A stretch of DNA of 32,000 nucleotides, taken from assembly GCA_963699255.1 (NCBI GenBank), contig OY969425.1, forward strand, positions 1,620,001-1,652,000, read 5' to 3'. This document shows positions 13,545-29,707 of this stretch, in pieces (position 1 is the stretch's first letter; every line of letters starts with the position of its first letter). This DNA comes from an uncultured bacterium (GTDB taxonomy: Bacteria > Margulisbacteria > WOR-1 > CAVSGV01). The notes below the pieces were generated by a model. That model worked only from the letters and a program-made list of their open reading frames with translations, ran no database searches and had not been told where the DNA came from. A program made the position numbers and the translations under genes.

Positions 13545-14369
13545 ATGGCGACATTCCTTGATATTGGAAAACCTTATACCGATTACAAGACGGCGAAGTT
13601 CATTATTGTGCCTGTTCCGTATGAGGAAACCGTTTCTTACGGCAAAGGAACAGGGAAGGGACCGGATGCGATCCTCAAGGCCTCACTTCATATTGAAGAT
13701 TATGATATCGACCTGGGCAGCGAGCCTTACAGGGCCGGGATACATGTGGCAAGGCCTATCAAGGCCGTTAAGGCCATTAAGGCGGAGGTCAGAAAGATCC
13801 TTGATGACAAAAAAATTCCCGTTTTGCTTGGCGGGGAGCACTCGATAACCCCTTTTGCCGTTGCCGCGTGCAGAGAAAAGCACAACAACCTGAGCATTCT
13901 TCAGTTCGATGCTCACGCCGACCTGAGGGATAAATACCACGGTTCCAAACAGAGCCACGCATGTGCGATGAGGAGGGTTCTGGAGATATGCCCCGCGGTC
14001 CAGGTCGGCATCAGGTCTATGTCAGTTTCAGAAGCCAAATTCGCCAGGGGATCGGGCCAGATAAGCAGGATACATCTTGCCCAGAAACTTGAGCTTGCGG
14101 AGATCGTTGTGGAACAGCTCTCCAAGGAAGTTTATATCACCTTCGATGTGGATGCGCTCGATCCGGGTATTATGCCTTCCACCGGAACTCCTGAGCCGGG
14201 AGGGTTCGATTATTATGAAGTGCTGGACCTGTTCGAAGCTGTGGCGCGGGAAAAGAACATAGTCGGATTTGATTTTGTAGAACTTGCCCCGATAAAAAAC
14301 CTGAATGCTCCCGATTTCACTATCGCGAAGCTTATTTATAAGCTGATGGGTTACTTAACCTCGAAATAA
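13545..14369 (+). CDS. speB: Agmatinase / arginase-family ureohydrolase
   Basis: GGEHSIT, FDAHADLRD and FDVDALDP manganese-site motifs are present. I chose the start MATFLDIGKPY at 13545. The upstream part of ORF 13365-14369 overlaps pcm and the promoter. Confidence 0.85.
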   Translation: MATFLDIGKPYTDYKTAKFIIVPVPYEETVSYGKGTGKGPDAILKASLHIEDYDIDLGSEPYRAGIHVARPIKAVKAIKAEVRKILDDKKIPVLLGGEHSITPFAVAACREKHNNLSILQFDAHADLRDKYHGSKQSHACAMRRVLEICPAVQVGIRSMSVSEAKFARGSGQISRIHLAQKLELAEIVVEQLSKEVYITFDVDALDPGIMPSTGTPEPGGFDYYEVLDLFEAVAREKNIVGFDFVELAPIKNLNAPDFTIAKLIYKLMGYLTSK

Positions 14370-15777: not shown

Positions 15778-15823
15778 GGGTATGAGTATACAATAACAAA
15801 AATCAATTACCAATTACAAATTT

Positions 15824-15908
15824 CAAATGACAAATAAATCATTAAATGACAAATCAATAAATTTTAACCTATTTGGATTTTTCAGATTCATTTGGGTTTT
15901 GTCATTTG
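15824..15908. repeat. Inverted repeat CAAATGACAAA / TTTGTCATTTG within an A-rich arm and T-rich arm dyad
   Basis: 15824-15834 is the perfect reverse complement of 15898-15908. A second AAATGACAAAT copy lies at 15844-15854. The left arm contains the annotated ATG at 15827. Confidence 0.55.
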
Positions 15909-18304
15909 GATTTTGGATTTTAACATTGATTGCTCCTTCTTTCGGATCAACTATCCAGGAAGAATTCATGAAGAGCAGCAACTTTGTGCGCCAGGCTGGA
16001 ATGGGCGGCGCGGCAACGGCGGTCTGCGACGACCTGAGCTCCGTCTACTATAACCCGGCAGGACTGGCAAAAGCCGGGCCGCTCGGGTTTTCGTTCGGGA
16101 CCATCGATACCAACAAGGAGCTGCTGGATGAGTACCGTTATTATTGCTACAACCTGGGCACTCTGGCTTATCTCGGATACGACAAGATACTTCCCACGGG
16201 AGAAAAGGTCAAGGCGGATACTTTCGGGATGGGCGTGCAGACCGGGATGGGGATAAGTTACGGCCTGACTTACAAGAACATTTTTATCGATACCAATGCC
16301 AAGGAAGAAAGGGGCTACAGCGCGGACCTCGGCCTCTTGTTGAAAGTGTCCCCGCAGGTCTCGATCGGCGTGCTGGGTCAGGACGCGCTGTCGGATAAGG
16401 TACTGGAGATACCTTCGAGCACGCGAATAGGTGCCGCTTACAGGCCTTTTGAAGACCGGCTGATAATCGCCGCTGACTCTGAGCTCGGAAGGGCCGGACC
16501 CGGAGATTTCACTCATTACGGAGTGGAGTGGAAGGTCGCCGACGGCCTTAAACTCAGGGCCGGCATCGACAGCGGCAATACCACTTTTGGATTGAGCCTT
16601 GATCTTCCTTTCATGAGGATCCATTACGCCGGCATGCTGGATAAGGATGCTGAAAGCGGTACGGTGCAGATGGTGGGCGGAGAGATAAGCTTTTTTGAAA
16701 GTCCGAAAAGACCTATGTCAGTGATAAGGCCGAAGGAATATGCTTTGATAGAGATCGGCGGGAACATCGTCGGAGGAGTGGGGGATTTCAGCTTTTTGGG
16801 CGGCGGCCGTATCGGGGCTGACTCGATCATTGAACACATAAAACAGGCGACAAAAGACCCTTACATTGACGGGCTGATCCTGAGAATAAAAGGATTTGAC
16901 GGGGGAATGGGTTCCCTGGCGATCGTGCAGGAGATCAGGAGCGAACTTTTAAAATCAAAAGAAAAAGGCAAAAAGATCGTTGCGTATCTGGAGGAGGGCA
17001 CGCTCGGGGACGAATATTATCTGGCGTCCGTCGCGGATAAGGTCGTAGCTCCGTCCGCGGGGACCGTCGGCGGGATAGGGAAATCGATAAACATCGTCAA
17101 GGTAAAAGGATTGCTTGAAAAACTGGGCATAGAATCGCAGCTCCTTTCAAAGGGAAAATACAAGACAACATTCAATATGTTCTCATCCGATATCACAAAA
17201 GAGCAGAGATTGATGATACAGGATATTCTTTCCGATCTGTACCGGCAGATGGTCACCGATATCGAGAGCTCCAGAAAAGGGAAGATATCCATGGAAAAGC
17301 TGAAAGCGATATCCGACGGCAGCATATTCTCCGCCGGCAAGGCAAAGGAGCTCGGGCTTATCGATGAGGTCGGATACTTCAAGGACGCGATGAGCGCCGG
17401 AGCGGACCTTTATGGATCAAAGGATGAAATAAGCGTTATTGAGCAAAAAGACCTGTTCGTAGATGATGCCGATGGATATTTGTTCGCGTTCCCGAACAAG
17501 ATAGCCGTGATAGAGATCGACGGCGATATCGTCACGGGAGGATCCGGCCAGAACATTTTATTCGGCGGCCATACCACGGGAGCCGATGTCATTTGCGATC
17601 AGATACGTAAGGCCGCGGATGACTGGCAGGTGAAGGCGATGATCGTGAGGATAAACAGCGGCGGTGGCTCCGCGGTCGCGTCGGGCCAGATATATTCGGA
17701 GCTGGTAAGAGCAAAGAAAAAAGACAAGGTGATCGTTGCTTCCATGGGGGACATGGCGGCTTCGGGAGGATATTACATAGCTTCAGCATGCAACAAGATA
17801 GTGGCCGACCCGGGGACAATAACCGGGAGCATAGGAGTGATAGACGAAAGCGTTCTCAATTATTCGGGGCTTCTGAAAAAGCTCGGGATCACGGCCGAAA
17901 GCGTAAAAGAAGGAAAGCATGCCGACATGTTCTCGGGGCTTCGAAAACTCTCCACCGAAGAGGTAAACTCCGTGAACGCATACATTGAAGAGACTTACCA
18001 GGAATTCATTAAGGCCGTGGCCGACGGAAGGGGGATGACTACGGGCGAGGTCGCGTCGCTTGCGGAAGGAAAGGTTTACACCGGCAGTCAGGCCCTTGAC
18101 GTTAAGCTTGTGGATAAGATGGGCAACTTTACCGATTCCGTTAAGCTCGCTGCGGACATCGCGAAGCTGTCGGGAGAGCCGCAGCTTGTCTATTACAGAC
18201 AGCAGAACATGTTCCTGCAGTTAGGAGGCGGAGCGGTAAAGATGCTGGGGCTGGGGAACGGCATATTTCCCGATCAGGGCGGGCTTGTGGAGTATAAGCT
18301 TTAA
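15827..18304 (+). CDS. sppA: Fusion protein: N-terminal outer-membrane beta-barrel-like domain plus tandem signal peptide peptidase SppA (S49) domains
   Basis: About aa 48-290 carry the GMGGAATAVCDDLSSVYYNPAGLA motif seen in PorV/FadL-like barrels and end in VQMVGGEISF. About aa 300-825 hold two S49 repeats, with GDMAASGGYYIAS in the second. The start is uncertain: 15827 has no RBS, while ATG 15968 has AGGAAG upstream but would leave no signal peptide. Confidence 0.8.
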   Translation: MTNKSLNDKSINFNLFGFFRFIWVLSFGFWILTLIAPSFGSTIQEEFMKSSNFVRQAGMGGAATAVCDDLSSVYYNPAGLAKAGPLGFSFGTIDTNKELLDEYRYYCYNLGTLAYLGYDKILPTGEKVKADTFGMGVQTGMGISYGLTYKNIFIDTNAKEERGYSADLGLLLKVSPQVSIGVLGQDALSDKVLEIPSSTRIGAAYRPFEDRLIIAADSELGRAGPGDFTHYGVEWKVADGLKLRAGIDSGNTTFGLSLDLPFMRIHYAGMLDKDAESGTVQMVGGEISFFESPKRPMSVIRPKEYALIEIGGNIVGGVGDFSFLGGGRIGADSIIEHIKQATKDPYIDGLILRIKGFDGGMGSLAIVQEIRSELLKSKEKGKKIVAYLEEGTLGDEYYLASVADKVVAPSAGTVGGIGKSINIVKVKGLLEKLGIESQLLSKGKYKTTFNMFSSDITKEQRLMIQDILSDLYRQMVTDIESSRKGKISMEKLKAISDGSIFSAGKAKELGLIDEVGYFKDAMSAGADLYGSKDEISVIEQKDLFVDDADGYLFAFPNKIAVIEIDGDIVTGGSGQNILFGGHTTGADVICDQIRKAADDWQVKAMIVRINSGGGSAVASGQIYSELVRAKKKDKVIVASMGDMAASGGYYIASACNKIVADPGTITGSIGVIDESVLNYSGLLKKLGITAESVKEGKHADMFSGLRKLSTEEVNSVNAYIEETYQEFIKAVADGRGMTTGEVASLAEGKVYTGSQALDVKLVDKMGNFTDSVKLAADIAKLSGEPQLVYYRQQNMFLQLGGGAVKMLGLGNGIFPDQGGLVEYKL

Positions 18305-18753: not shown

Positions 18754-19691
18754 ATCCGTTCCGCCGCCCTCAGCTTCGCGCTTCTCGCTCTCGGATTCGA
18801 TCCTACCTCTTCAGGACCCGGGATAACAGGCTTCCTTGTGATCACAGCCAGCTTCCTTTTGTGATCACAGGTGCACTGCGGTTGTCTCGGAGGACAGATG
18901 CAATCCACGGACTCTCTCTTGAAGATGTTCTTGACCATGCGGTCTTCAAGAGAATGATATGATATCACGACTATCCTCCCGCCGGGAGCGAGAAGGTCGA
19001 TTGCGTCCTCCAGCGCGGTACGCAGGCTGTCGAGCTCCCCGTTCACCGCTATCCTGAAAGCCTGGAAAACCCTGGCAATGGATTTCGTGGCGAACTGGGG
19101 CGATGTCTTCGGGATGGAGCGCCTTATGATATCCGCGAGCCCAAGCGTTCCTTTGACGGGTCGGTTCCTGATGATAGCCGAAGCGATCCGTTTGAAAAAC
19201 CTTTCTTCGCCAAGGTCCCGGATGATACCCTCAAGTTCTTCTTTATCAAGGCTGTTCACCAGATCCTCTGCGGTACGGCCTTTTGACCTGTCCATCCTCA
19301 TGTCAAGGGGAGCGTCCGTCCGGAAGCTGAATCCGCGGCCTGAAGAATCGATCTGGTATGAGGATACGCCCAGGTCGAATAATATTCCGTTGATACCCGA
19401 TACCCGATGCCCGATACCTGACGCGCGATCATTGATTATCGATCTTATATTTGAGAAGTTGTCATGAATAAAAATGACGCGGCTGCCGAATTCCTTCAGG
19501 TTTTCCTTCGCCGCTTCAAAGGCTTCAGCATCCTGGTCGATCCCGATGAGGGCTATCTTGTCCGAAGCTTCGAGTATCGCTTTCGCGTGTCCGCCTCCGC
19601 CGAGCGTCGCGTCGACAATGACAGTATTCGGGCGGATATTGAGATATTCGATAACCTCTTTGAGCATTACCGGAATGTGTTTATAGATCAT
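18750..19691 (-). CDS. rsmH: 16S rRNA (cytosine1402-N4)-methyltransferase RsmH/MraW
   Basis: 313 aa with HIPVML, DATLGGGGHA, DLGVSSYQID and SYHSLEDR motifs. Confidence 0.95.
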   Translation of the reverse strand: MIYKHIPVMLKEVIEYLNIRPNTVIVDATLGGGGHAKAILEASDKIALIGIDQDAEAFEAAKENLKEFGSRVIFIHDNFSNIRSIINDRASGIGHRVSGINGILFDLGVSSYQIDSSGRGFSFRTDAPLDMRMDRSKGRTAEDLVNSLDKEELEGIIRDLGEERFFKRIASAIIRNRPVKGTLGLADIIRRSIPKTSPQFATKSIARVFQAFRIAVNGELDSLRTALEDAIDLLAPGGRIVVISYHSLEDRMVKNIFKRESVDCICPPRQPQCTCDHKRKLAVITRKPVIPGPEEVGSNPRARSAKLRAAERI

Positions 19692-19748
19692 GGTTATTTG
19701 GTGAAGGGAAAGGTGTTTTTATGAAAGTTGGTGTGGGATCGTGTCTTT

Positions 19749-19776
19749 CTCATCTCACATCTCCCGTCTCGCATCT
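19749..19776. repeat. Four tandem heptamers (CTCATCT CACATCT CCCGTCT CGCATCT) in the rsmH upstream region
   Basis: Read directly from the sequence. On the minus strand the units are AGATGNG-like. They sit between the small ORF stop (19778) and the rsmH start (19691). Confidence 0.5.
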
Positions 19777-19777
19777 C

Positions 19778-19924
19778 TTATTTCTTCTTCAGGCTGTTGT
19801 CAATGGAAGTTAATTTCTGATGGATCATGTAAAGCAGGACGGGCGCCGAGAACCACATGATGATAACGGAAAAGAAAAGCACCATCAATATAAGCCCGAA
19901 AAATCCGGTGAATACGGTGTTCAT
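19778..19924 (-). CDS. Possible small membrane protein (48 aa)
   Basis: I translated it by hand as MNTVFTGFFGLILMVLFFSVIIMWFSAPVLLYMIHQKLTSIDNSLKKK. GAGG lies 3 nt before the ATG. I recognise no homology, and it is too short for the ORF track. Confidence 0.25.
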   Translation of the reverse strand: MNTVFTGFFGLILMVLFFSVIIMWFSAPVLLYMIHQKLTSIDNSLKKK

Positions 19925-19981
19925 TAGCCTCATAAGGTATGGATTATAACACCACAATCCATTATAATAAAGCTTCGTATT

Positions 19982-21175
19982 ATGTTCTCATTTCAAACAA
20001 AACTATCGATGCTTCGGGCCGTTTTGACGAAAAGATCGCCATTCTACATCCAGTTCTATATCTCAAAGGCGTGCAACCTGGAATGCAAGATGTGCAACAT
20101 AGTGGAGGCGAACGCCGACCTGAAACCTTTCAAGACGGAAAACATCGAGGCGATCGCGGACAACCTGGTGAGGATCGGCGCCGGGGTGGTCCTTCTTACC
20201 GGAGGAGAGCCGTTCCTTCGGCCCGATATCGATGAGATCGTGCGGATATTCAAAAAAAAGAACCTGGACGTGAGGATGCAGACGGCGGGGCTTATGTCCA
20301 AGAAAGACAAGATCGCGAAATGCGTCGAGAACGGCGCGAGGGACATAAACGTCAGCATAGACTCGCTCGATGAAGAGATGTCGGATTACATAAACGGAGT
20401 AAAGGGTTCGTGGCGCGACGCCATGAAGGCCGTCTCATTTATCTCCCGCACTTTCCCGCGGAAAGACTCCATCTGCGCGCTTGGGTGCGTTCTGTCGCGA
20501 TACAATGTGGATGAGATCGACGCGCTCCTCGACTTCGCGACAAGGATCGGCTGGTGGTTGTCCCTTGTTCCCGTGCACATCACGGAGCCGTCAAATCCCC
20601 TGAATTTCCGCGGATATGACGAATATTTCAAGTTCCGCGAAAAAGACTTTACGAAGGTCAAAGAGCTTATCGACCGGCTGAAGAAAAAGAAAAAGCATGG
20701 AGCCATGCTTTTTGATTCCGATGATTACCTTGATTCGATCTACCACTTCATCAGGACCGGGCACCCCAGCTGGAGGCACAGGGGCGTGTGCGACACGCCG
20801 AACCTTTATTTTGCCATATTGCCTGACGGCAGGTTCGCCCCGTGCTGCGACTTCCGGATGAACGAGGTCGTATACGTCTATGACAGGAGCTTTCCCGACA
20901 TTTACAGGACCGCGAAATTCAGGGATGAAGTGAAGTCCATCGCGAAGAAATGCCCCGGATGCAATTTCGGCAGCTTTCCGGAGATGACGCTCTCAGCCAG
21001 GTCGCTGCCGACGATATTCGAAAGGCTTATGCTCCAGTTCAGGGCGCAGTCCAGAGGGATAAGGCCCATTGAAGAGAGCGAATTGTTCAGGTTGATCGAT
21101 GAAGTAAAAAGCGGCTACGATATTTATAGAACTGGAAGAACATACCCGCACAGGGAAGAAAAGGTGAAGGGCTGA
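19982..21175 (+). CDS. Radical SAM enzyme with a partial SPASM/twitch-like C-terminal cysteine motif
   Basis: A CX3CX2C motif (ACNLECKMC) lies near the N-terminus, and GGEPFL is present. The C-terminal CDTPNLYFAILPDGRFAPC fits Cx12Gx4C and is followed by CPGC. The start could instead be M10 at 20009. Confidence 0.85.
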   Translation: MFSFQTKLSMLRAVLTKRSPFYIQFYISKACNLECKMCNIVEANADLKPFKTENIEAIADNLVRIGAGVVLLTGGEPFLRPDIDEIVRIFKKKNLDVRMQTAGLMSKKDKIAKCVENGARDINVSIDSLDEEMSDYINGVKGSWRDAMKAVSFISRTFPRKDSICALGCVLSRYNVDEIDALLDFATRIGWWLSLVPVHITEPSNPLNFRGYDEYFKFREKDFTKVKELIDRLKKKKKHGAMLFDSDDYLDSIYHFIRTGHPSWRHRGVCDTPNLYFAILPDGRFAPCCDFRMNEVVYVYDRSFPDIYRTAKFRDEVKSIAKKCPGCNFGSFPEMTLSARSLPTIFERLMLQFRAQSRGIRPIEESELFRLIDEVKSGYDIYRTGRTYPHREEKVKG

Positions 21176-21176
21176 A

Positions 21177-23576
21177 ATGTCAAATTTATCCCTGATGATG
21201 AAGCAGGTGAAGAGATACAAGACCGTCGGTTTCGGGACGGGAGGAGGGATACTGAAGCACTCGCTTTATCCATTAAAGCTCTTTAAACAGGTCCTTCCGT
21301 CGAGCGGAGTGATACTCGACCTCGGCTGCGGAGAGGGCATGCTCACAAACCTCCTGTCCGCCGCTCTTCCCGCGGCAAAGATCCACGGCGTGGACCTGGA
21401 CCGGGAGAGGATAGAGAAAGCGGAAAAAGTCGCCGGCCCCACGGCGGACTTCGCGGCAAAGGACATATTGGACTGCGATTTCAGGGGGGCTTCGGCCGCG
21501 ATATTCAACGACGTCCTTCATCATCATCCGAAAGACCACCAGGTCAAGCTTCTTGAAGCGGCCAATAAGTTCCTCGATGACGACGGCCTTCTTGTCCTGA
21601 AAGAAGTGGACATCAGGGACAGGGCCGACGTCGCCTGGACCACTTTCTGGGACAAGAAACTCTATCCGAATGACACCCTTAACTTCAGGGGGAAAAGCGA
21701 ATGGGAAAAGGTGCTTCGCGAGACCGGGTTCAGGGTCATCGGCATTCACAGGGTCAGGCATCCATGGCCGGCATCCAGGACCGTTATCGTCGCCACGAAG
21801 CGCCCAAAACTTGAAAGGATCGAATTCAAAAAGATCGATAACGCGAAAGACCTGACAAAGGTCCTTGTCACCGGGGCGACGGGATTCATCGGCGAGCATC
21901 TGGTGCGCGAGCTGTTAACTAATGGGATGGGCGGCAGGGACGTGCAGATATCGCTCATAGTGCGCGACCCCTGCGGACTTCCGGAAGAAATAAGAAGCAA
22001 CTCCAGGGTGAAGCTGATCGTGGCCGACCTGAAAGACCTCGCGTCAAAGCGCGGAGAACTTTACGGCCATGAATATGTTTATCATCTTGCCTCAAAGGTA
22101 GCTTTCTTTGCCGGCAGGGATATCATGGATGACAACGTTCTTCCGACAAAGAACCTCCTTGAAGCTGTTTCAGGGCCAAAGCTCAAAAGGTTCGTTTACG
22201 CCAGCACCATGGGAGCCCTTGACAGGTCGAAGACCGATGACTGCTCGAGCCCGCTCGACGAGAACTCCCCCGCGCATCCCGTATCTTTCTACGGCAGGAG
22301 CAAGCTCGAAGGGGAGAGGCTTGTAAAAAGCTCAAAGCTTCCCTATACGATAGTCAGGATACCATGGTGCTACGGCCCGGGGATGTCAAAGACGCATCAC
22401 GTGAGGGTGCTCTTTGAAAAACTCATGAAAGGCGGGTTGGTTTTCCGCGTCAACTGGCCGGGGAAAGTGAGCATCATCGAGGCCGGTGAACTCGCGAAGA
22501 TATTCACCGCCGCTGCGGCGGACCCGAAGGCCCTGAACGGGACTTTCTTTGCTTCCGACGGGGAGCCGATCTCTTTTGGAGAGCTCTTCCGTGAGATGGG
22601 ACGCGTCGCGGGCAGGAAGACGGGGAAGATCAATATTCCAGGGACCTTAATATCGATCGCGAAAATATTCAGACTGTTCGCGCCGTTCCAGATTAAATCC
22701 CTTTATATGGACGTGCTGGCGGTCTCGAACTCAAAGCTTGAAGGCATCGGCATCAAAGTTAAAAAAAGAGGAGCGGATTTCCTTCTTCCGCTTGCCAGAT
22801 ACATCAACGAGCAGAAATTCCCGTCAAGATGGCGGTCAAAGGCGCTCATTACTGGCGCCGCGAGCGGGATCGGGTTATCGCTTGCCAAAAAATTCTTCTC
22901 TCTCGGGTACGGCCTCATGCTTGTCGACAGGAACAAGGACCAGCTTGATAATATCGCAGGTGAGCTTAAGGCCGACAGGAGGGTCGCAGACCTGTCCGAC
23001 CGGACTGCCCTGAAAGAACTGTGCGGCGAACTTGTGTCAAAATTAAATGACATCGAGATCGTCGTCAATAATGCCGGTGTCGGAGCCAGGGGGAATTTTG
23101 ATGAAATGGAGTGGAGCGCGATAGAGAGGCTGATATCCGTCAATTGCGTCGCGCCCGCTATGATCAGCCGCGCGTTCATTCCCGTTTTCAGGAAAGCGGG
23201 GAGGGGAACGGTGATCAATGTCGCGTCGTCGTCGGCGTTCCAGCCTCTTCCGTTCATGGCCGCGTATTCCGCTTCAAAAGCGTTCATGCTGAATTTTTCA
23301 CAGGCGGTCTCGGCCGAAAGCCCGGTCGAGATAATTACCGTCTCTCCTTCAGGCACAGCAACGAACTTTCAATCATCATCGGGAGTGAAAAGAGACAAAA
23401 ATGAAAAGCTTCTTGATCCCGATGATGTGGCGGCTCAAATGATTTCAAAGATTGGCAAAGGCAGTAAATACTATATAATAGGCAGTTCGGGTAAGTTCAT
23501 GAGCTTTGTTTCACGCTTATTGCCCGCAGCTGTCCAACTTAAGCTGTGGAAGCGCCTCATGGGCAAAATGAGATAA
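21177..23576 (+). CDS. Triple-domain fusion: class I SAM methyltransferase, extended SDR (NAD-dependent epimerase/dehydratase) and classical SDR
   Basis: The methyltransferase domain has ILDLGCGEGM. The extended SDR has VLVTGATGFIGEH and YGRSK (YxxxK). The classical SDR has ALITGAASGIGLS, NNAG and YSASK. All 799 aa lie in one uninterrupted frame. Confidence 0.8.
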   Translation: MSNLSLMMKQVKRYKTVGFGTGGGILKHSLYPLKLFKQVLPSSGVILDLGCGEGMLTNLLSAALPAAKIHGVDLDRERIEKAEKVAGPTADFAAKDILDCDFRGASAAIFNDVLHHHPKDHQVKLLEAANKFLDDDGLLVLKEVDIRDRADVAWTTFWDKKLYPNDTLNFRGKSEWEKVLRETGFRVIGIHRVRHPWPASRTVIVATKRPKLERIEFKKIDNAKDLTKVLVTGATGFIGEHLVRELLTNGMGGRDVQISLIVRDPCGLPEEIRSNSRVKLIVADLKDLASKRGELYGHEYVYHLASKVAFFAGRDIMDDNVLPTKNLLEAVSGPKLKRFVYASTMGALDRSKTDDCSSPLDENSPAHPVSFYGRSKLEGERLVKSSKLPYTIVRIPWCYGPGMSKTHHVRVLFEKLMKGGLVFRVNWPGKVSIIEAGELAKIFTAAAADPKALNGTFFASDGEPISFGELFREMGRVAGRKTGKINIPGTLISIAKIFRLFAPFQIKSLYMDVLAVSNSKLEGIGIKVKKRGADFLLPLARYINEQKFPSRWRSKALITGAASGIGLSLAKKFFSLGYGLMLVDRNKDQLDNIAGELKADRRVADLSDRTALKELCGELVSKLNDIEIVVNNAGVGARGNFDEMEWSAIERLISVNCVAPAMISRAFIPVFRKAGRGTVINVASSSAFQPLPFMAAYSASKAFMLNFSQAVSAESPVEIITVSPSGTATNFQSSSGVKRDKNEKLLDPDDVAAQMISKIGKGSKYYIIGSSGKFMSFVSRLLPAAVQLKLWKRLMGKMR

Positions 23577-23592
23577 GTTATCGAGGTAAAAT

Positions 23593-24543
23593 ATGGCGAT
23601 TAAAGAAACGCTGGACATAGTTATCCCCGTGTATAATGAAGAGGCCTGCATAAACAGGCTCATGGAGAGGCTTTTGTCCCTCAGGCAAAAAGCGGGGCCC
23701 CTGGAGATAAGCTTCATCTTCGTCAATGACGGCTCCACGGACAGCAGCGCGAAAATGCTCTTCGGCTATGCCGAAAAGCACGACTTCGTGAGGGTCATAA
23801 ATTTCAGCCGCAACTTCGGGCACCAGATGGCGGTAACGGCCGGGATAGACCATGCCGATGCGGATCACGTGGCTATCATCGACTCCGACCTCCAGGATCC
23901 TCCCGAGCTGATACTCGACATGCATAAGAAAGCGAAAGAAGGATTTGACATCGTATACGGGCAGAGGATCGCCAGGCCCGGCGACTCGTTCTTTAAAAGG
24001 GCGACCGCGCATTTTTTCTACAGGCTCATCAATGTAATGTGCGACATTGACATACCGTTCGATACGGGCGATTTTCGCCTTATCAGCAGGCGCGTGGCGG
24101 ACGAGCTGAAAAAAATGAGAGAAAAACACCGCTTCATCAGGGGGATGGTGCCGTGGCTCGGGTTCCGCAGCACGCCGCTGCCTTACAACAGGGAGAAAAG
24201 GTTCGGCGGCGAGACCAAATATCCGTTAAGAAAAATGGTCAGGTTCGCCCTTGATTCCATTTTCTCCTTCTCCAATGTTCCTTTGAAGATCGCCAACTAC
24301 CTGGGGATGGCGATCATATGTATCAGCGTTCTTGTCGGGCTGTTCCTGCTGTATTTAAGGCTCTTCACACGGTTTACCGTCCCCGGCATCACTTCTGTCC
24401 TTCTCGCGCTCATGTTCATCGGCGGGATACAGATAGTCATGACGGGGATAATAGGCGAATACATAGGCAGGATATTCGAGGAGTCAAAAGGCAGGCCCCT
24501 TTATGTCGTGTGGGAGACAAAGAACATCAGCAAAGGCCGCTAG
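23593..24543 (+). CDS. GT2 polyprenyl-phosphate glycosyltransferase (GtrB/ArnC/DPM1-like)
   Basis: IVIPVYNEE, VNDGSTDSS and DSDLQDPPELI motifs are present. Two C-terminal TM helices end in GEYIGRIFEE, which is the family architecture. Confidence 0.88.
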   Translation: MAIKETLDIVIPVYNEEACINRLMERLLSLRQKAGPLEISFIFVNDGSTDSSAKMLFGYAEKHDFVRVINFSRNFGHQMAVTAGIDHADADHVAIIDSDLQDPPELILDMHKKAKEGFDIVYGQRIARPGDSFFKRATAHFFYRLINVMCDIDIPFDTGDFRLISRRVADELKKMREKHRFIRGMVPWLGFRSTPLPYNREKRFGGETKYPLRKMVRFALDSIFSFSNVPLKIANYLGMAIICISVLVGLFLLYLRLFTRFTVPGITSVLLALMFIGGIQIVMTGIIGEYIGRIFEESKGRPLYVVWETKNISKGR

Positions 24544-25350
24544 ATGATGGACCAGGAAAAAACACTCACCAAAGAAGAGATATTCCATGACGGATGGGCG
24601 AACTCGATCGACGTCGACCGGCTTATGGTGGACGAGTCCTTCGAGGCCTGCACTGCCCCGGAGAACAGGCTCATAATGAAAAAGCTCGGCGACGTAAGGG
24701 GGAAGAATATCCTGGAGCTGGGATGCGGCGCGGGCGAGGCGGCGGTCTATTTCGCGAAAAAGGGCGCGCGTGTCACCGCCACCGACATATCGAACGGAAT
24801 GCTGGAAGTGGTCAAGAAGCTGGCGCGCAAGCACGGCGTGGAGGTGGAGACCCGGCAGAGCTATTCGCATACCATGCCGTTCGCCGACGGCACTTTTGAC
24901 ATAGTTTACGCGGCGAATCTTTTGCATCACGTGGACATAGAGAGCACTTTGAAGGAAGCGCGCAGGGTGCTTAAAAATGGAGGAGTTTTTGTGTCCTGGG
25001 ATCCCCTGGAGCACAATCCTTTGATCAAGCTTTACAGGAGGATTGCCACAAAGGTCAGGACCGAAGATGAACACCCCATTAAAACAAGCGACATTAAGAC
25101 CTTTAAGAGAATATTTTCAACGGTCGAGACCGACGCGACCTGGTTCTTTCCTCTGCTGATATTCGTGAAATTCTTCCTGGTCGACAGGATAAGCCCGAAC
25201 TCCGAAAGATACTGGAAGAAGATCATCGTTGAACATGAAAAACTCCAACGCGCGTACAATTTCCTGGAGAAGATGGATAAGGTCTTGTTCTCCGTTTTTC
25301 CTTTCATGAAGCGTTTCTGCTGGAACATCGTCGTGTTCGGGACAAAATAA
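24544..25350 (+). CDS. Class I SAM-dependent methyltransferase
   Basis: ILELGCGAGEAAVYFAKKGARVTATDIS (motif I) and the FDIVYAANLLHH...LKNGGVF segment are present. The start abuts the GT2 stop. Confidence 0.75.
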   Translation: MMDQEKTLTKEEIFHDGWANSIDVDRLMVDESFEACTAPENRLIMKKLGDVRGKNILELGCGAGEAAVYFAKKGARVTATDISNGMLEVVKKLARKHGVEVETRQSYSHTMPFADGTFDIVYAANLLHHVDIESTLKEARRVLKNGGVFVSWDPLEHNPLIKLYRRIATKVRTEDEHPIKTSDIKTFKRIFSTVETDATWFFPLLIFVKFFLVDRISPNSERYWKKIIVEHEKLQRAYNFLEKMDKVLFSVFPFMKRFCWNIVVFGTK

Positions 25351-25352
25351 CC

Positions 25353-27125
25353 ATGAAAAACTATTTTAGATTATTGAAATACGTTAAGCCCTACACAGGA
25401 CTGCTGTTGCTGGGATTCCTATGCTCTACCGCGCTTTCTTCAATAAGTGTAATGGTAATACCTATTGTTGGGAAACTCTCGGAAGCTATCGGAGTGAAGA
25501 ATTTCGCGCAATTGAACATGTTTATAGCCGCGGCGATAGGGCTTTATTTTTTAAGGGGGATTTTTTCTTTCGGGCAGGCCTATTTTATCTCTCATGCCGA
25601 TCAAGGCATAACAAAAGATCTCAGGCTTCAAGTATTTGAGCATCTCCAAAACCTCTCCTTGGATTTTTATTCAAAGACCAGGACCGGCGAAATAATAACG
25701 ATAATGATGAATGACATCAATATGATGCAGAATGTCATCATTGATTCCTTTACTTCCATTATCCCAAATATCATGACGATAGTAGGAGTGGCCGGATACC
25801 TTCTTTTTCTGGACTGGCGGTTAACGCTTGTTTCAATATTCATGCTTCCGGTCATCACCATCGTTTCAACTGGTTTCAGCAATCAGGCACGAGCTGTGGC
25901 AACGCAGACCCAGGAAAAAATATCCGACATAACTTCCGTTCTGCATGAAGTGGTGACCGGGGCAAAGATCGTGAAATCTTTTACCATGGAAAAGGAAGAA
26001 ATCAAAAAGTTTGAACATGTGTCAGAACATATGAAGCAATTCGCACTGAATGCGAGCATTTTAAGGGCTGCTCAAGCCCCGTTATTCAATTTCCTGCAGG
26101 CTATCGCCGCTGTGATAGTGATATGGGTCGGCGGGTTTGAGATCGTTTCAGGCAGGATTACCGCCACCAATTTAATTGCGTTCTTTTCTGGTGTACTTAT
26201 GCTTGGTGATCCCATCGGTGGCTTAAGCGGGCTGAATGTCACCATCCAAATAGCTTTGGTTTCCGCTAAAAGGGTTTTTAATGTTCTTGACACAAGGCCA
26301 ACCGTAAGCGAGGCAACAGATGCAAAAGATGTCAGCATTTTAAACGGAGAGGTTGTTTTTAATGACGTATCCTTTAAGTATGAGTCAAACAACGATCTTG
26401 TCCTTAGGAACATAAACATGAGTTGCAGGGCGGGTGAGGTCATCGCCATAGTGGGACATTCGGGTGCGGGAAAGAGTACTCTGGTCAGCCTGATCCCGCG
26501 GTTTTATGATCCTTTAAAAGGGGAAGTCATTATAGATGGCCATAATGTCAAAGAATATAAGATTATGTCTTTCAGGAAATTCATCGGGATAGTTCCCCAG
26601 GAAACGCTGCTTTTTTCCGGCACGATTAAGGATAACATAGCTTATGGAAGGATGAGTGCGACTGATAAAGAGGTAGAGGAAGTGGCAAAGATGGCGAATG
26701 CTCATGATTTTATCATGTCATTTCCTGAACAATACAACACTATCATCGGGGAGAAAGGCATCAGATTGTCCGGCGGGGAGCGTCAGCGCATAGCGATAGC
26801 AAGGGCTTTTTTAAGGGATCCGAAGATATTGATACTTGATGAAGCCACGTCATCGCTTGATTCAGAATCTGAAAATCTTGTGCAGCAGGCCTTGGAAAAA
26901 TTGATGAAGGGCAGGACCACATTTGTCATCGCTCACAGGTTGTCTACCGTTAAATTCGCGAACAGGATCATAGTAATTGATAAGGGTGCAATCGTTGAAG
27001 AAGGGACGCATGAGGAATTGATCAATAAAGAAGGTGGCACTTATAAAAAACTTCACGATATGCAATTGGGAAAATCGGAACCGGGAAACATAGTGGACAA
27101 CTTGGGCAAAGTTTACGCAAATTAA
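25353..27125 (+). CDS. ABC exporter with fused permease and ATPase (MsbA/PglK-type half transporter)
   Basis: 590 aa with an N-terminal six-TM-type domain. Walker A (GHSGAGKST), the signature motif (LSGGERQRIAIARA) and Walker B (ILILDEATSSLD) are present. Confidence 0.92.
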   Translation: MKNYFRLLKYVKPYTGLLLLGFLCSTALSSISVMVIPIVGKLSEAIGVKNFAQLNMFIAAAIGLYFLRGIFSFGQAYFISHADQGITKDLRLQVFEHLQNLSLDFYSKTRTGEIITIMMNDINMMQNVIIDSFTSIIPNIMTIVGVAGYLLFLDWRLTLVSIFMLPVITIVSTGFSNQARAVATQTQEKISDITSVLHEVVTGAKIVKSFTMEKEEIKKFEHVSEHMKQFALNASILRAAQAPLFNFLQAIAAVIVIWVGGFEIVSGRITATNLIAFFSGVLMLGDPIGGLSGLNVTIQIALVSAKRVFNVLDTRPTVSEATDAKDVSILNGEVVFNDVSFKYESNNDLVLRNINMSCRAGEVIAIVGHSGAGKSTLVSLIPRFYDPLKGEVIIDGHNVKEYKIMSFRKFIGIVPQETLLFSGTIKDNIAYGRMSATDKEVEEVAKMANAHDFIMSFPEQYNTIIGEKGIRLSGGERQRIAIARAFLRDPKILILDEATSSLDSESENLVQQALEKLMKGRTTFVIAHRLSTVKFANRIIVIDKGAIVEEGTHEELINKEGGTYKKLHDMQLGKSEPGNIVDNLGKVYAN

Positions 27126-27138
27126 GATATAAAAGAGG

Positions 27139-28512
27139 TTGGTTAGATTGAGCAGAAAAATCATTTTTACGGGAGAAAGAATAATCCCGGATCAAGTTGA
27201 CGATGATCTGTATAATGAGCATATTTCGCGCTATCTTTTTGCCAAAAGATATTTAAAAGGGAAAGTTGTTTTAGATGCTGGCTGCGGGGTGGGTTATGGA
27301 GCATATGAAGCCCGAAAAGCCGCAAAAAAGATATATGGGATTGACATATCAAAGGAATCTATCGAATATGCGAAGCGAAAATATTCTTCTACAAATATTT
27401 GTTTTGAAGTTGGAGATGTTAAAAAGCTAAGATTCAAAGACAATTTCTTTGATGTGATCCTTTCCTTTGAGGTAATAGAGCATCTCTCAAGGCAGGATAT
27501 TTACCTTGAGGAAATGAGGAGGGTTCTGAAGAAAAAAGGCTTGTTCTTTGTGTCTACCCCGAACAAAATCTATTATTCTAAAGAAGGGCGACCAAAAAAC
27601 CCTTTTCATACAAAGGAGTTTAATTTAAAGGAATTCAGCGGAATATTATCCAAACAGTTTAAATATGTATCAATATACAACCAGAACCACAATGCCGTAA
27701 TATCGATCTCCCCACAAAAACAGGGCACTTCCACGGCTGACATTGAAATTTGTGACGCGTCAAAAATCTCGCCGATAATGGATAATTATTTTATCGCGGT
27801 TTGTTCAAATGCCCCTATCGGCAAAAAAACGCGAAAAGACTTTATTTATTTGCCCCATAAGGGGAACATTATTTATGAAAGGACAAAATGGGCAAGGAGC
27901 CTTGATGAAAAACTTAAAAGAGGTGCTAAGTATATAGAAAAACTGCAGAAGGGGTTTGATGAAAAAGCCGCATGGGCAAACAATTTAAACAAAGAATTGA
28001 CGATAACGAAGAAAAATGCGGCAAGGTTACGCAAAGAATTTGATGAGAAAGCCGTATGGGCGAACAGTTTAAACAAAGAATTGACGATAATGAAGAAAAA
28101 TGCGGCAAGGTTACGCAAAGAATTTGATGAGAAAGTCGCATGGGCAAACAGTATAAACAAGGAGCTTGCTGAATCGAAGGGATACGCGGAGGGGTTAAGG
28201 ATAGGGCTTGATAATAAATCTCTGCTTGTGGAGAGCCTGAGGAAGGAATTAGACAGGATAGAAGAATTGAACGCAGAACTTGATTGTGAGCAATGCAGGA
28301 TTAAAAAGTCCCTATTTTATAAAGTGCATCTTTCATTTTTGTTTGTGTCAAATAATATCCATCGGCTTTTGGCCAGAAATAGGATTGTAAATTCTGCTGC
28401 TTCGACCGTTTTTCTTTTTGTTTATTTTGTCTTTAAAAATATTTTCATTCCATTTAGGTTGAATAAAGCAAAAAGCATCGCCAAAAAGGTGTTCTTGGAT
28501 GACGCCCGATAA
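27139..28512 (+). CDS. SAM methyltransferase with a long repeat-containing coiled coil and a hydrophobic C-terminus (WbdD-like architecture)
   Basis: FTGERIIP and VLDAGCGVGYGA methyltransferase motifs are present. A coiled coil spans about aa 240-400. The hydrophobic tail is FLFVSNN...VFLFVYFVFKNIFIPF. The ORF-track start is TTG 27139, but TTG 27148 has better RBS spacing. Confidence 0.75.
   Translation: MVRLSRKIIFTGERIIPDQVDDDLYNEHISRYLFAKRYLKGKVVLDAGCGVGYGAYEARKAAKKIYGIDISKESIEYAKRKYSSTNICFEVGDVKKLRFKDNFFDVILSFEVIEHLSRQDIYLEEMRRVLKKKGLFFVSTPNKIYYSKEGRPKNPFHTKEFNLKEFSGILSKQFKYVSIYNQNHNAVISISPQKQGTSTADIEICDASKISPIMDNYFIAVCSNAPIGKKTRKDFIYLPHKGNIIYERTKWARSLDEKLKRGAKYIEKLQKGFDEKAAWANNLNKELTITKKNAARLRKEFDEKAVWANSLNKELTIMKKNAARLRKEFDEKVAWANSINKELAESKGYAEGLRIGLDNKSLLVESLRKELDRIEELNAELDCEQCRIKKSLFYKVHLSFLFVSNNIHRLLARNRIVNSAASTVFLFVYFVFKNIFIPFRLNKAKSIAKKVFLDDAR
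27955..28167 (+). repeat. Tandem 84-bp (28-aa) repeat, about 2.5 copies, inside the methyltransferase coiled coil
   Basis: Copies start at 27955, 28039 and 28123. Copies 1 and 2 differ at 5 of 84 positions by my alignment. The encoded unit is FDEKAAWANNLNKELTITKKNAARLRKE. A degenerate copy precedes them. Confidence 0.9.
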
Positions 28513-29698: not shown

Positions 29699-29707
29699 GG
29701 AGACGCT

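What the first reader, a model, noticed from the sequence alone, without database searches (positions are those of the whole stretch)
21177..23576. Single 799-aa polypeptide fusing a methyltransferase, an extended SDR and a classical SDR
**Seen in the sequence.**
- One uninterrupted frame carries three complete catalytic signatures.
- The three signatures are GCGEG (methyltransferase); TGATGFIG with YGRSK (extended SDR); and TGAASGIG with NNAG and YSASK (classical SDR).
- The start codon lies 1 nt after the radical SAM stop.

**Established knowledge.** Extended SDRs act as NDP-sugar dehydratases, epimerases or decarboxylases, as in the ArnA C-terminal domain. Classical SDRs act as ketoreductases.

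**Inference.** The protein is a channelled three-step nucleotide-sugar tailoring enzyme. I do not recognise this domain order as a described family.
Basis: partly seen in the sequence, partly recalled or inferred. Interest (0 to 1): 0.6.

Follow-up and report, generated by a model that had tools for sequence, protein, structure and literature searches.

The report
Three-enzyme fusion in sugar-lipid cassette
This is a real single gene that joins a methyltransferase and two different dehydrogenase/reductase enzymes, and it always travels with a radical SAM enzyme, a second methyltransferase and a lipid-carrier sugar transferase, so it probably helps build an as yet unknown modified sugar for the cell surface.

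Summary
Window 21177-23576 (+) is one uninterrupted 799-aa frame. It carries a class I SAM methyltransferase (aa ~1-214), an extended SDR (aa ~228-548) and a classical SDR (aa ~549-799), each with its full catalytic motifs. It starts 1 nt after the radical SAM stop.

It is not a lost-stop artefact. About 95 clusters at 90% identity share the same three-domain order at 37-83% identity, in Verrucomicrobiota, Elusimicrobiota, Thermodesulfobacteriota and others.

The AlphaFold model is confident as one body (pLDDT 92, pTM 0.92).

In all 8 loci examined the fusion sits in a four-gene cassette, in shuffled gene order:
- a twitch/SPASM radical SAM enzyme;
- the fusion itself;
- a GtrB-type polyprenyl-phosphate hexosyltransferase (E 2.7e-85 to Synechocystis GtrB);
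- a ~268-aa methyltransferase.

The cassette usually lies beside polytopic GT-C-like membrane proteins.

A candidate-phyla-radiation (CPR) relative fuses the GT2 to the second methyltransferase. Relatives of the N-terminal methyltransferase domain are fused to GT2, GT4 and YdjC enzymes.

The best reading is a tailoring enzyme for a lipid-carrier-borne surface sugar in a Gtr/Arn-like periplasmic glycosylation route. The product, the substrate stage (UDP- or undecaprenyl-phosphate-linked) and the radical SAM step remain inferred.

The family is uncharacterised and rare: 3 of 146 genomes in the phylum. Other readers of this scan noted the operon on this same window.

The parts
19982..21175 (+). 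Radical SAM enzyme (397 aa) of the twitch/SPASM class; the first gene of the cassette and its most conserved member.
   Evidence: - Pfam: Radical_SAM E 1.9e-25; SPASM weak.
- Invariant residues: CX3CX2C (C31, C35, C38), the GGE motif, and C-terminal C270, C288, C289, C324, C327.
- 70-74% identical to the orthologues in L005, L006 and the CPR locus L008.
- The fold is nearest PqqE, BlsE, SuiB, SkfB, MoaA, AbmM and DesII. No close characterised relative was found.
21177..23576 (+). The fusion gene, 799 aa plus stop (P0001).
21177..21818 (+). N-terminal class I SAM-dependent methyltransferase domain (aa 1-214).
   Evidence: - Invariant D48, G50-C-G-E-G54, D73, N111-D112, H115 and K142-E-V144 across 32 homologues.
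- Methyltransf_23 E 1.8e-15.
- In other proteins the same domain family is fused to GT2, GT4, YdjC or the extended SDR alone.
21858..22820 (+). Extended SDR domain (aa 228-548).
   Evidence: - Motifs: TGATGFIG; invariant R263 at the end of beta-2; S343/T344, Y372 and K376.
- Fold Z 27-28 over aa 225-548 to UDP-GlcNAc 4-epimerase, EvdS6 and UDP-GlcA 4-epimerase.
- Profile search: best hit MoeE5, 93.6 bits.
- NCBIfam: best hit HpnA, 78.8 bits, far below its cut-off.
22821..23573 (+). Classical SDR domain (aa 549-799) with a basic C-terminal helical tail.
   Evidence: - Motifs: TGAASGIG; invariant D584 at the end of beta-2; NNAG; N656, S684, Y697 and K701.
- adh_short E 1.8e-42.
- Fold nearest 17beta-HSD11/13, DHRS7B and HetN.
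- The tail aa 770-799 has net charge +7.
23593..24543 (+). GtrB-type polyprenyl-phosphate hexosyltransferase (GT2, 316 aa) with a C-terminal transmembrane hairpin.
   Evidence: - 289.5 bits, E 2.7e-85, to Synechocystis GtrB (5EKP); 144 bits to ArnC structures.
- PgfS 258 bits and ArnC 160 bits, both below their NCBIfam cut-offs.
- Hydrophobic segments at aa 237-287.
24544..25350 (+). Second class I methyltransferase (268 aa); a cassette member.
   Evidence: - Methyltransf_11 E 2.4e-26.
- Orthologues at 40-67% identity in every locus examined.
- Fused to the C-terminus of the GtrB-like GT2 in the CPR locus L008.
- Best solved match is a D-glucose O-methyltransferase, 6UV6, at 51.9 bits, which is weak.
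25353..27125 (+). MsbA/PglK-like ABC exporter (590 aa), 2 nt downstream. A possible flippase for the lipid-linked product; whether it belongs to the cassette is uncertain.
   Evidence: - ABC_membrane plus ABC_tran domains; MsbA model 538 bits, below its cut-off of 602.
- G+C falls from 0.53 to 0.43 here.
- In other loci this position is held by unrelated polytopic membrane proteins.

Best explanation
**What it is.** The gene encodes one soluble polypeptide with three active enzymes:
- a SAM-dependent sugar methyltransferase;
- an extended SDR that, from its invariant Arg after beta-2, most likely uses NADPH as a ketoreductase;
- a classical SDR that, from its invariant Asp after beta-2, most likely uses NAD(H).

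**Where it works.** It is the tailoring component of a mobile four-gene cassette: twitch-type radical SAM enzyme, this fusion, a GtrB-type polyprenyl-phosphate hexosyltransferase, and a second methyltransferase.

**Proposed route.**
1. A common UDP-hexose is the starting sugar, and the GT2 loads the sugar onto undecaprenyl phosphate.
2. The sugar is oxidised to a keto intermediate by one SDR.
3. The intermediate is altered by the radical SAM enzyme. Possible reactions include diol dehydration (deoxygenation), decarboxylation or epimerisation.
4. It is reduced again by the other SDR.
5. It is methylated once or twice.
6. The lipid-linked modified sugar is flipped. GT-C-type membrane transferases attach it to a surface glycan outside the cytoplasm, as in the Gtr, Arn and pentofuranose three-component systems.

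**Shown.**
- The fusion is real and conserved, and the catalytic motifs are intact.
- The cassette is conserved.
- The partner GT2 belongs to the GtrB family.
- GT-C-like neighbours are present.

**Inferred.**
- The cofactor assignments.
- The order of steps.
- The radical SAM chemistry and the identity of the product.
- Whether tailoring happens on the UDP-sugar or, as I slightly favour (about 55:45), on the undecaprenyl-phosphate-linked sugar.
For: **The fusion is real**
- About 95 clusters keep the full architecture at 37-83% identity. Invariant catalytic residues occur in all three domains, and the linkers are conserved.
- The model has pLDDT 92.2 and pTM 0.92.

**The cassette is conserved**
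- Orthologous radical SAM, GT2 and ~268-aa methyltransferase genes flank the fusion in all 8 loci examined: the window, L001, L003, L005, L006, L097, L098 and L099. Gene order is shuffled.
- The GT2 scores 289 bits (E 2.7e-85) to GtrB 5EKP and has a transmembrane hairpin.

**Neighbours fit periplasmic glycosylation**
- Recognised families: PMT_2 (L005, L097), GT87 (L097), GtrA (L006).
- Unnamed polytopic proteins with 7-12 hydrophobic segments.
- The same genome has a GT2 joined to a polytopic membrane domain 1.4 kb past the window end, and 7-8 PMT_2 genes elsewhere.

**Fusion links between components**
- GT2::MT268 is a single 584-aa protein in a Shapirobacteria MAG, where the radical SAM enzyme is 71% identical to the window's.
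- Relatives of the methyltransferase domain are fused to GT2, GT4, YdjC or the extended SDR alone.

**Sugar chemistry**
- The extended SDR is nearest to UDP-sugar 4-epimerases and decarboxylases.

**Precedent**
- SDRs are known to act on lipid-linked sugars: DprE1/DprE2 and ORF13 acting on undP-Ribf (PMC11127046).
Against: - No product, substrate or cofactor has been measured for any member of the family.
- All domain-level matches to characterised enzymes are distant: 20-30% identity, and far below every NCBIfam cut-off.
- The window itself has no GT-C gene inside the cassette. An MsbA-like ABC exporter and a low-GC O-antigen-like block follow instead.
- One two-domain relative (L007) has no GT2 within 10 kb.
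- The classical SDR is closest to SDRs that act on lipids, and the extended SDR's best NCBIfam hits include lipid-acting families (HpnA, OleD, SdmB, thioester reductase). A non-sugar lipid substrate is therefore not excluded.
- The cofactor rules are statistical, not proof.
Confidence: 0.6

Rival explanations
1. The fusion is a channelled three-step enzyme that acts only on a soluble nucleotide sugar: oxidation or epimerisation, then methylation, then ketoreduction. The finished NDP-sugar is then simply the donor for the GtrB-like GT2.
For: - The extended-SDR fold, including its C-terminal substrate subdomain, matches UDP-sugar enzymes at Z 27-28 and by profile.
- The protein has no hydrophobic segment.
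- A pTM of 0.92 suggests a fixed three-domain body.
- ArnA sets the precedent for a fused NDP-sugar tailoring enzyme upstream of an ArnC-type GT2 (established knowledge).
Against: - The dehydratase/decarboxylase acid/base residues are absent (S-T-M-G).
- An Arg, not an Asp, follows beta-2, which is unlike epimerases that keep NAD+ bound.
- The second methyltransferase is tethered to the membrane GT2 in L008.
- Self-contained cassettes (L001, L098) carry no nucleotidyltransferase.
- The classical SDR resembles SDRs with lipid substrates.
- Channelling cannot be judged without the model's geometry or kinetic data.
Confidence: 0.28
2. The tandem extended SDR plus classical SDR performs a four-electron reduction of an activated carboxyl group to an alcohol. 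This would resemble the R1-R2 domains of glycine betaine reductase ATRR or the PRK07201-type fatty acyl-CoA reductases. The methyltransferase would supply activation by making a methyl ester, for example on a uronic acid.
For: - The top AlphaFold/Swiss-Prot match spanning both SDR domains (aa 219-768) is ATRR, E 2.6e-26.
- Thioester-reductase and PRK07201 models give weak hits.
- The methyltransferase domain's best NCBIfam hits include the carboxyl O-methyltransferases Tam and BioC, but weakly, at 33-40 bits.
Against: - The TM-score to ATRR is only 0.33/0.21 with rmsd 17 A, so only the domain order is shared.
- PRK07201 scores 100 bits against a cut-off of 549, and only 24 bits on the extended-SDR part.
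- No adenylation, carrier or CoA-ligase gene is conserved in the cassette.
Confidence: 0.07
3. The cassette modifies a non-carbohydrate membrane lipid, such as the polyprenyl carrier itself or a hopanoid- or isoprenoid-like lipid. The GT2 would only glycosylate the finished lipid.
For: - HpnA is the best NCBIfam hit for the extended SDR; OleD and SdmB also appear.
- The classical SDR is nearest to 17beta-HSD11/13, DHRS7B and HetN.
- Protein-language-model neighbours of the radical SAM enzyme include DUF3463 (HpnH-type) clusters.
Against: - All these scores lie far below the family cut-offs.
- The GT2 is of GtrB type, a family whose known acceptors are polyprenyl phosphates.
- Neighbours are glycan genes and GT-C enzymes, not terpenoid or lipid synthesis genes.
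- Relatives of the methyltransferase domain are fused to glycosyltransferases.
Confidence: 0.04
4. Assembly or sequencing artefact: three adjacent genes were read as one because stop codons were lost.
For: One relative (P0253) has methyltransferase plus extended SDR as one gene and a separate short adh_short gene downstream. The extended-SDR/classical-SDR border can therefore be a gene border in nature.
Against: - The same uninterrupted three-domain frame is found in about 95 independent clusters from many samples and phyla, with conserved linkers.
- Seventeen representatives of 790-821 aa are listed among the 50%-identity clusters.
- The one-chain model is confident.
- The genome is a single 1.77-Mb contig.
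Confidence: 0.01

Closest known systems
Arn pathway of E. coli/Salmonella: ArnA (fused formyltransferase plus extended-SDR UDP-GlcA decarboxylase), ArnC (GT2), ArnT (GT-C)
   Same: - A fused tailoring enzyme containing an extended SDR works next to a polyprenyl-phosphate GT2.
- Its product is used outside the cytoplasm by a GT-C enzyme.
- The window's GT2 matches ArnC structures at 144 bits.
   Different: - Different fusion partners: no formyltransferase here; instead a methyltransferase and a classical SDR.
- ArnA's Ser-Glu/Arg decarboxylase residues are not present (S-T-M-G).
- The cassette adds a radical SAM enzyme and lacks an aminotransferase.
- The GT2 is nearer to GtrB (289 bits) than to ArnC.
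Three-component periplasmic glycosylation: GtrA/GtrB/GtrC, and the pentofuranose systems of Kelly et al. 2024 (PMC11127046); also mycobacterial DprE1/DprE2
   Same: - A GtrB-type synthase makes a lipid-linked monosaccharide.
- GT-C-like or GtrA genes lie beside the cassette in other genomes.
- Redox enzymes that remodel the sugar while it sits on the lipid carrier have precedent: ORF13 (an SDR) and DprE2.
   Different: - Those systems have no radical SAM enzyme, no methyltransferases and no fused SDR pair.
- The sugar made here is unknown.
- In the window the adjacent membrane protein is an MsbA-like ABC exporter, not GtrA or GT-C.
UDP-glucuronic acid / UDP-hexose 4-epimerases (MoeE5 6KV9, BcUGAepi 6ZL6, TM0509 4ZRM)
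   Same: They are the best solved relatives of the extended-SDR domain by profile (86-94 bits) and by fold (Z about 27-28). They share TGxxGxxG and the Ser/Thr-Tyr-Lys triad.
   Different: - Only about 22-24% identity.
- An invariant Arg replaces the Asp after beta-2, which predicts NADPH rather than bound NAD+.
- The motif ASTMGA(L/V)DR replaces SSSxVYG.
- The domain here is embedded between two other enzymes.
Tandem extended-SDR plus classical-SDR reductases: ATRR R1-R2 and PRK07201-type fatty acyl-CoA reductases
   Same: The same order of an extended SDR followed by a classical SDR in one chain.
   Different: - Scores are far below the family cut-off (100 against 549 bits).
- There is no carrier or adenylation partner.
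- There is no N-terminal methyltransferase.
- The gene context is different.
Sugar-modifying twitch radical SAM enzymes (BlsE, AbmM, DesII; from my own knowledge also BtrN and AprD4 with its reductase AprD3)
   Same: - The cassette's radical SAM enzyme has one probable auxiliary cluster.
- Among solved structures it superposes best on BlsE (TM 0.59/0.71).
- AprD4/AprD3 is a precedent for a radical SAM dehydration followed by reduction by a dehydrogenase.
   Different: - Sequence identity is only 14-18%.
- PqqE, SuiB, SkfB and MoaA score equally well, so the match shows the class only, not the reaction.

Membership tests
Class I SAM-dependent methyltransferase (N-terminal domain) | Motif I (D/E-x-G-x-G-x-G), an acidic residue at the end of beta-2, and a Rossmann-like seven-strand fold | tested here: met
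   - D48-L-G-C-G-E-G54 and D73 are invariant in 32 homologues.
- Methyltransf_23/25/31/12/11 all score above their cut-offs.
- The model shows an alternating strand/helix pattern at pLDDT above 90.
Extended SDR | TGxxGxxG, a Ser/Thr-Tyr-Lys triad, and a C-terminal substrate-binding subdomain of about 100 aa | tested here: met
   - T232-G-A-T-G-F-I-G239, S343/T344, Y372 and K376 are invariant.
- Whole-domain structural matches cover aa 225-548 at Z 27-28.
NDP-sugar 4,6-dehydratase (RmlB/GMD type) | An Asp/Glu acid-base pair directly after the catalytic Thr (T-D-E or T-S-E) | tested here: not met
   The sequence is A-S343-T344-M345-G346-A, conserved as ASTMGA(L/V)DR, with no acidic residue. dTDP-glucose dehydratase model: 31.9 bits against a cut-off of 365.
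UDP-GlcA decarboxylase (ArnA C-terminal domain / UXS) | A Ser/Thr-Glu dyad (T-S-E-V-Y-G) and a catalytic Arg. The motif is recalled from established knowledge. | tested here: not met
   No Glu follows the catalytic Ser/Thr. EvdS6 decarboxylase matches only at fold level, Z 27.8 and 20% identity.
UDP-hexose / UDP-GlcA 4-epimerase | Tightly bound NAD+ with an Asp at the end of beta-2; SSSxVYG around the catalytic Ser; UDP-binding Arg residues | tested here: inconclusive
   - These are the best solved relatives (MoeE5 93.6 bits).
- However, the residue at the end of beta-2 is an invariant Arg (R263) and the Ser motif differs.
- GalE model: 51 bits against a cut-off of 262.
- Cofactor retention cannot be tested here.
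Classical SDR | TGxxxGxG, NNAG, and the Asn-Ser-Tyr-Lys tetrad | tested here: met
   T559-G-A-A-S-G-I-G566, N631-N-A-G634, N656, S684, Y697 and K701 are invariant or nearly so. adh_short scores 145 bits.
PRK07201 two-domain SDR (fatty acyl-CoA reductase type) | A whole-protein score above the NCBIfam cut-off of 549 bits | tested here: not met
   100.5 bits for the whole protein, and only 24 bits on the extended-SDR part.
HpnA (hopanoid-associated sugar epimerase) | A score above the TIGR03466 cut-off of 367.65 bits, and a hopanoid gene context | tested here: not met
   78.8 bits. No hopanoid genes were seen in any of the loci read.
GtrB-type polyprenyl-phosphate glycosyltransferase (the neighbouring GT2, 23593-24543) | A GT-A catalytic domain followed by a C-terminal transmembrane hairpin, with close similarity to characterised GtrB | tested here: met
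   - E 2.7e-85 over aa 7-308 to 5EKP.
- Hydrophobic segments at aa 237-287.
- The sugar specificity was not tested. The PgfS and ArnC equivalog cut-offs are not reached.
Three-component periplasmic glycosylation system (lipid-sugar synthase, flippase, GT-C) | A GtrB-like synthase encoded together with a flippase and a GT-C transferase | tested here: inconclusive
   - Met in relatives: PMT_2, GT87 or GtrA beside the cassette in L005, L006 and L097.
- In the window the adjacent gene is an ABC exporter. The nearest GT-C-like domain lies about 1.4 kb past the window end, and 7-8 PMT_2 genes lie elsewhere.

The most novel reading that the evidence does not exclude
The cassette may define an undescribed way of making a surface sugar. 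In this reading a hexose already attached to undecaprenyl phosphate is remodelled at the membrane by four activities: a radical SAM enzyme, an NAD-type oxidising SDR, an NADPH-type reducing SDR, and two methyltransferases. The product would be a new deoxy, epimerised or branched methylated sugar. That would make it the first radical SAM step known on a polyprenyl-phosphate-linked monosaccharide. The three-domain fusion would serve as its redox-and-methylation module.
Probability: 0.25. Interest if true: 0.75.

Novelty: new variant of a known kind. Interest (0 to 1): 0.55.

Why it matters
- Surface glycans decide how bacteria meet phages, hosts and antibodies, and unusual sugars are the main source of their diversity.
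- This cassette is small and self-contained, and it has spread across very distant phyla: Margulisiibacteriota, CPR, Elusimicrobiota, Verrucomicrobiota and Thermodesulfobacteriota.
- It combines a radical SAM enzyme with a lipid-carrier glycosyltransferase. I could find no description of that pairing.
- Four genes can be expressed together and the lipid-linked product read by mass spectrometry. The prediction is therefore directly testable.
- A positive result could add a new sugar and new enzymes to the glycoengineering toolbox.
- The finding also gives a function-level handle on roughly a hundred database entries now named only 'SDR family oxidoreductase'.

Tried and rejected
- **Read coverage across the junctions.** Only one public run holds 5% of the sampled words.
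- **Scan of genome contigs with the full-length alignment.** It was swamped by generic classical-SDR matches.
- **Literature.** Six full-text searches were run: five on combinations of radical SAM, GtrB, polyprenyl or undecaprenyl phosphate, methyltransferase, SDR and trifunctional, plus a PDB-code search for 8WM2. None found a paper on this architecture or cassette. The 8WM2 search returned only unrelated hits; the fold-search table later named that entry as AbmM.
- **Looking for the split-off N-terminal methyltransferase in the two-domain loci.** The domain HMM finds no orthologue in L007 or L008. The methyltransferase domain is therefore an addition specific to the three-domain clade, not a simple fission product there.
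- **Radical SAM function from structure.** The model matches the whole twitch/SPASM class about equally, so no reaction can be assigned.
- **HpnH/hopanoid lead from language-model neighbours.** Rejected: no DUF3463 Pfam match and no hopanoid context.
- **Promoter and terminator scan of 19500-27300.** Counts are no higher than in shuffled sequence.
- **Amphipathic-helix test of the C-terminal tail.** The tail is basic (+7) but is not the strongest amphipathic segment, so I make no membrane-binding claim from it.


Full report
**1. The observation**

Window 21177-23576 (+) is a single ORF of 799 codons plus stop.
- LGCGEG, aa 49-54;
- TGATGFIG, aa 232-239;
- YGRSK, aa 372-376;
- TGAASGIG, aa 559-566;
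- NNAG, aa 631-634;
- YSASK, aa 697-701.

Pfam finds three non-overlapping domains:
- class I methyltransferase models at aa 38-188;
- Epimerase/NAD_binding_10/3Beta_HSD at aa 228-490;
- adh_short at aa 556-735, E 1.8e-42.

The upstream radical SAM ORF ends at 21175. One base separates its TGA from the ATG at 21177, and a purine-rich stretch lies just upstream.

The downstream gaps are 16, 0 and 2 nt, so the genes form a tight operon.

ORFs on the opposite strand have no family match, and no Rfam family is present.

**2. Is the fusion real?**

Raw reads could not be consulted.
- A search of 5.8 billion proteins returned about 95 clusters with the same three-domain architecture at 37-83% identity. 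Where named, they come from Verrucomicrobiota/Opitutus, Elusimicrobiota and Thermodesulfobacteriota. A further set of about 570-aa relatives has only the two SDR domains.
- In an alignment of 32 full-length members, all catalytic residues of all three domains are invariant, and the linkers are conserved too.
- AlphaFold2 folds the chain as one confident body: pLDDT 92.2, pTM 0.92.
- A profile of the methyltransferase domain was run against 1.84 billion representatives. It finds 117 proteins at E <= 1e-30, of which 17 listed representatives are 790-821 aa long.

The architecture is therefore real and recurrent, but rare. Within the window's own phylum only 3 of 146 genomes have it, and the other two copies are only 35-40% identical.

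The neighbouring housekeeping gene gltX has its named best relatives in Margulisiibacteriota/Saganbacteria at 63-70% identity. This agrees with notes by other agents of this scan. It also shows that the cassette is an accessory element, probably acquired by horizontal transfer.

**3. The unit is a four-gene cassette**

I read the flanks of seven other three-domain loci: L001 (Elusimicrobiota), L003 (Opitutus), L005, L006, L097, L098 and L099 (Thermodesulfobacteriota).

Every one carries orthologues of the window's radical SAM enzyme (39-74% identity), its GT2 (44-63%) and its 268-aa methyltransferase (40-67%). Gene order differs between loci.

The GT2 is a GtrB-type polyprenyl-phosphate hexosyltransferase.
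- It scores 289.5 bits, E 2.7e-85, against the Synechocystis GtrB structure.
- It scores 144 bits against ArnC.
- It has the C-terminal transmembrane hairpin.

Next to the cassette lie one or more of the following:
- PMT_2 (L005, L097);
- GT87 (L097);
- GtrA (L006);
- unnamed polytopic proteins with 7-12 hydrophobic segments.

This is the make-up of a three-component periplasmic glycosylation system.

In the window the next gene is an MsbA/PglK-like ABC exporter, and G+C drops there. Past the window end lie Glf, a 736-aa protein with an N-terminal GT2 domain joined to a polytopic membrane domain, and a GT2 plus DUF2304 pair. The genome holds 7-8 PMT_2 genes and one GtrA gene elsewhere.

**4. 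Fusion evidence that ties the parts together**

- In a Shapirobacteria (CPR) MAG, L008, the gene order is radical SAM, two-domain SDR, a methyltransferase, then one 584-aa protein.
  - In that protein, aa 3-309 are the GtrB-like GT2 with its hairpin.
  - Its aa 318-584 are the orthologue of the window's 268-aa methyltransferase, at 53% identity.
  - The radical SAM enzyme there is 71% identical to the window's.
- The N-terminal methyltransferase domain family also occurs in these forms:
  - MT plus extended SDR;
  - extended SDR plus MT;
  - GT2 plus MT;
  - GT2 plus MT plus MT;
  - GT2 plus MT plus YdjC;
  - MT plus GT4;
  - a stand-alone protein of about 200 aa.
- In one relative the classical SDR is a separate gene after an MT plus extended-SDR gene.

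These fusions and fissions show that the domains work in one pathway, and that the methyltransferase domain belongs to glycan chemistry.

**5. What each domain looks like**

*Extended SDR*
- By profile the best solved relatives are MoeE5, TM0509 GalE and the Bacillus cereus UDP-GlcA 4-epimerase, at 86-94 bits.
- By fold the best matches are a UDP-GlcNAc 4-epimerase, the EvdS6 decarboxylase and a UDP-GlcA 4-epimerase, at Z 27-28 over the whole domain.
- The motif after the catalytic Ser/Thr is S-T-M-G, without the acid/base residues of 4,6-dehydratases or of ArnA/UXS decarboxylases.
- The residue ending beta-2 is an invariant Arg in a VRDP-like motif, as in the NADPH-dependent DFR/CCR-type reductases. 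Those reductases also match the N-terminal half.
- NCBIfam gives only sub-threshold hits: HpnA 78.8 bits, LegB, thioester reductase, OleD and SdmB.
- From the established cofactor rules for SDRs, I infer an NADPH-dependent ketoreductase acting on a phosphate-linked sugar.

*Classical SDR*
- It has the full Asn-Ser-Tyr-Lys tetrad and an invariant Asp after beta-2, which predicts NAD(H).
- It resembles 17beta-HSD11/13, DHRS7B and HetN, which are SDRs with lipophilic substrates.

*Methyltransferases*
- Both the N-terminal domain and the 268-aa protein are generic class I enzymes.
- The best solved match of the 268-aa protein is a glucose O-methyltransferase, and that match is weak.

*Radical SAM enzyme*
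- It has CX3CX2C plus five invariant C-terminal cysteines.
- Its fold belongs to the twitch/SPASM class. Among solved structures BlsE superposes best, but PqqE, SuiB, SkfB, MoaA, AbmM and DesII are close behind.

**6. Mechanism proposed**

The GT2 loads a common hexose onto undecaprenyl phosphate. The fusion supplies an oxidation (classical SDR, NAD+), a reduction (extended SDR, NADPH) and one methylation. The radical SAM enzyme performs the chemically hard step on the activated intermediate. The second methyltransferase adds a further methyl group. The lipid-linked product is then flipped and used by GT-C transferases.

Whether the tailoring comes before or after transfer to the lipid is open.

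For tailoring on the UDP-sugar:
- the extended-SDR fold resembles UDP-sugar enzymes;
- the protein is soluble.

For tailoring on the lipid-linked sugar:
- the methyltransferase is tethered to the GT2 in L008;
- self-contained cassettes carry no nucleotide-sugar genes (L001, L098);
- the classical SDR is of a lipid-substrate type;
- DprE1/DprE2 and ORF13 on undP-Ribf are precedents (PMC11127046).

I lean slightly to the lipid-linked stage.

**7. Rivals**

- *ATRR/FAR-like four-electron reduction.* ATRR is the top two-domain structural hit, but it shares only the domain order (TM 0.33). The PRK07201 family cut-off is missed by a wide margin.
- *A non-sugar lipid substrate.* This rests only on sub-threshold HpnA-type hits and does not fit the glycan context.
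- *An assembly artefact.* This is excluded by conservation.

**8. Novelty**

Every database copy carries only a generic name, such as 'SDR family NAD(P)-dependent oxidoreductase' or, wrongly, 'entA'. No curated family reaches its cut-off. Six full-text searches found nothing on the architecture or the cassette.

I therefore class it as a new variant of a known kind: Gtr/Arn-type lipid-carrier glycosylation with a new tailoring set.

Noticed in passing
L008:12564-14318 (Candidatus Shapirobacteria UBA1435 contig DCTR01000034.1): A single 584-aa protein joins a GtrB-like GT2, including its transmembrane hairpin, to the orthologue of the window's 268-aa methyltransferase. This places a methyltransferase directly on a lipid-sugar synthase.
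   Followed up: partly
window 19982-21175 compared with L005, L006 and L008: The radical SAM enzyme is 70-74% identical between Margulisiibacteriota, an unnamed MAG and a CPR bacterium. In the same loci the fusion or two-domain SDR is only 34-61% identical. The radical SAM enzyme is thus by far the most constrained part of the cassette.
   Followed up: partly
window 25353-32000: G+C falls from about 0.53 to 0.37-0.44 starting at the MsbA-like ABC exporter. The block continues with a 457-aa methyltransferase that has a weak coiled-coil-type match (Crescentin rod, aa 297-386) and a C-terminal hydrophobic segment, then GT4 and GT2 genes. It looks like a separately acquired O-antigen-type block. 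Another agent has already reported the 457-aa gene.
   Followed up: no
L094:1411-3621 and L094:9859-10949 (G000:C1, just past the window end): Two features lie just past the window end. The first is a 736-aa protein with an N-terminal GT2 domain and about 10 hydrophobic segments. The second is a 232-aa GT2 followed by a DUF2304 protein; from memory, this pairing resembles mycobacterial PpgS with Rv3632. A second radical SAM gene (499 aa), a methyltransferase, an FAD oxidase and Glf lie between them.
   Followed up: partly
G000, whole genome: A 1.77-Mb genome carries 7-8 PMT_2-type GT-C genes, three of them clustered near C1:1396000-1402000. That is many acceptors for lipid-linked sugars in so small a genome.
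   Followed up: no
window 14332-15813 (-): The gltX ORF as listed starts at a TTG and is 493 aa long, whereas its close homologues are 476-481 aa. The true start is probably about 12-17 codons downstream.
   Followed up: no
window 15827-18304 (+): The SppA-type S49 protease (825 aa) has a weak PorV/PorQ-family match at aa 48-105 ahead of the two protease repeats.
   Followed up: no
L003:1394-9932 (Opitutus MAG): Three tandem paralogues of about 940 aa lie directly upstream of the fusion. They are 31-35% identical to one another and have no Pfam match. The one checked (944 aa) has about 8 N-terminal hydrophobic segments ahead of a long non-hydrophobic part. They are candidate GT-C-like transferases that would use the cassette's product.
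   Followed up: no
L110:593-2828: A relative has the methyltransferase plus extended SDR as one 544-aa gene, followed after 128 nt by a short (157 aa) separate adh_short gene. The arrangement is seen in two samples. It is either a natural split or a decaying copy.
   Followed up: no
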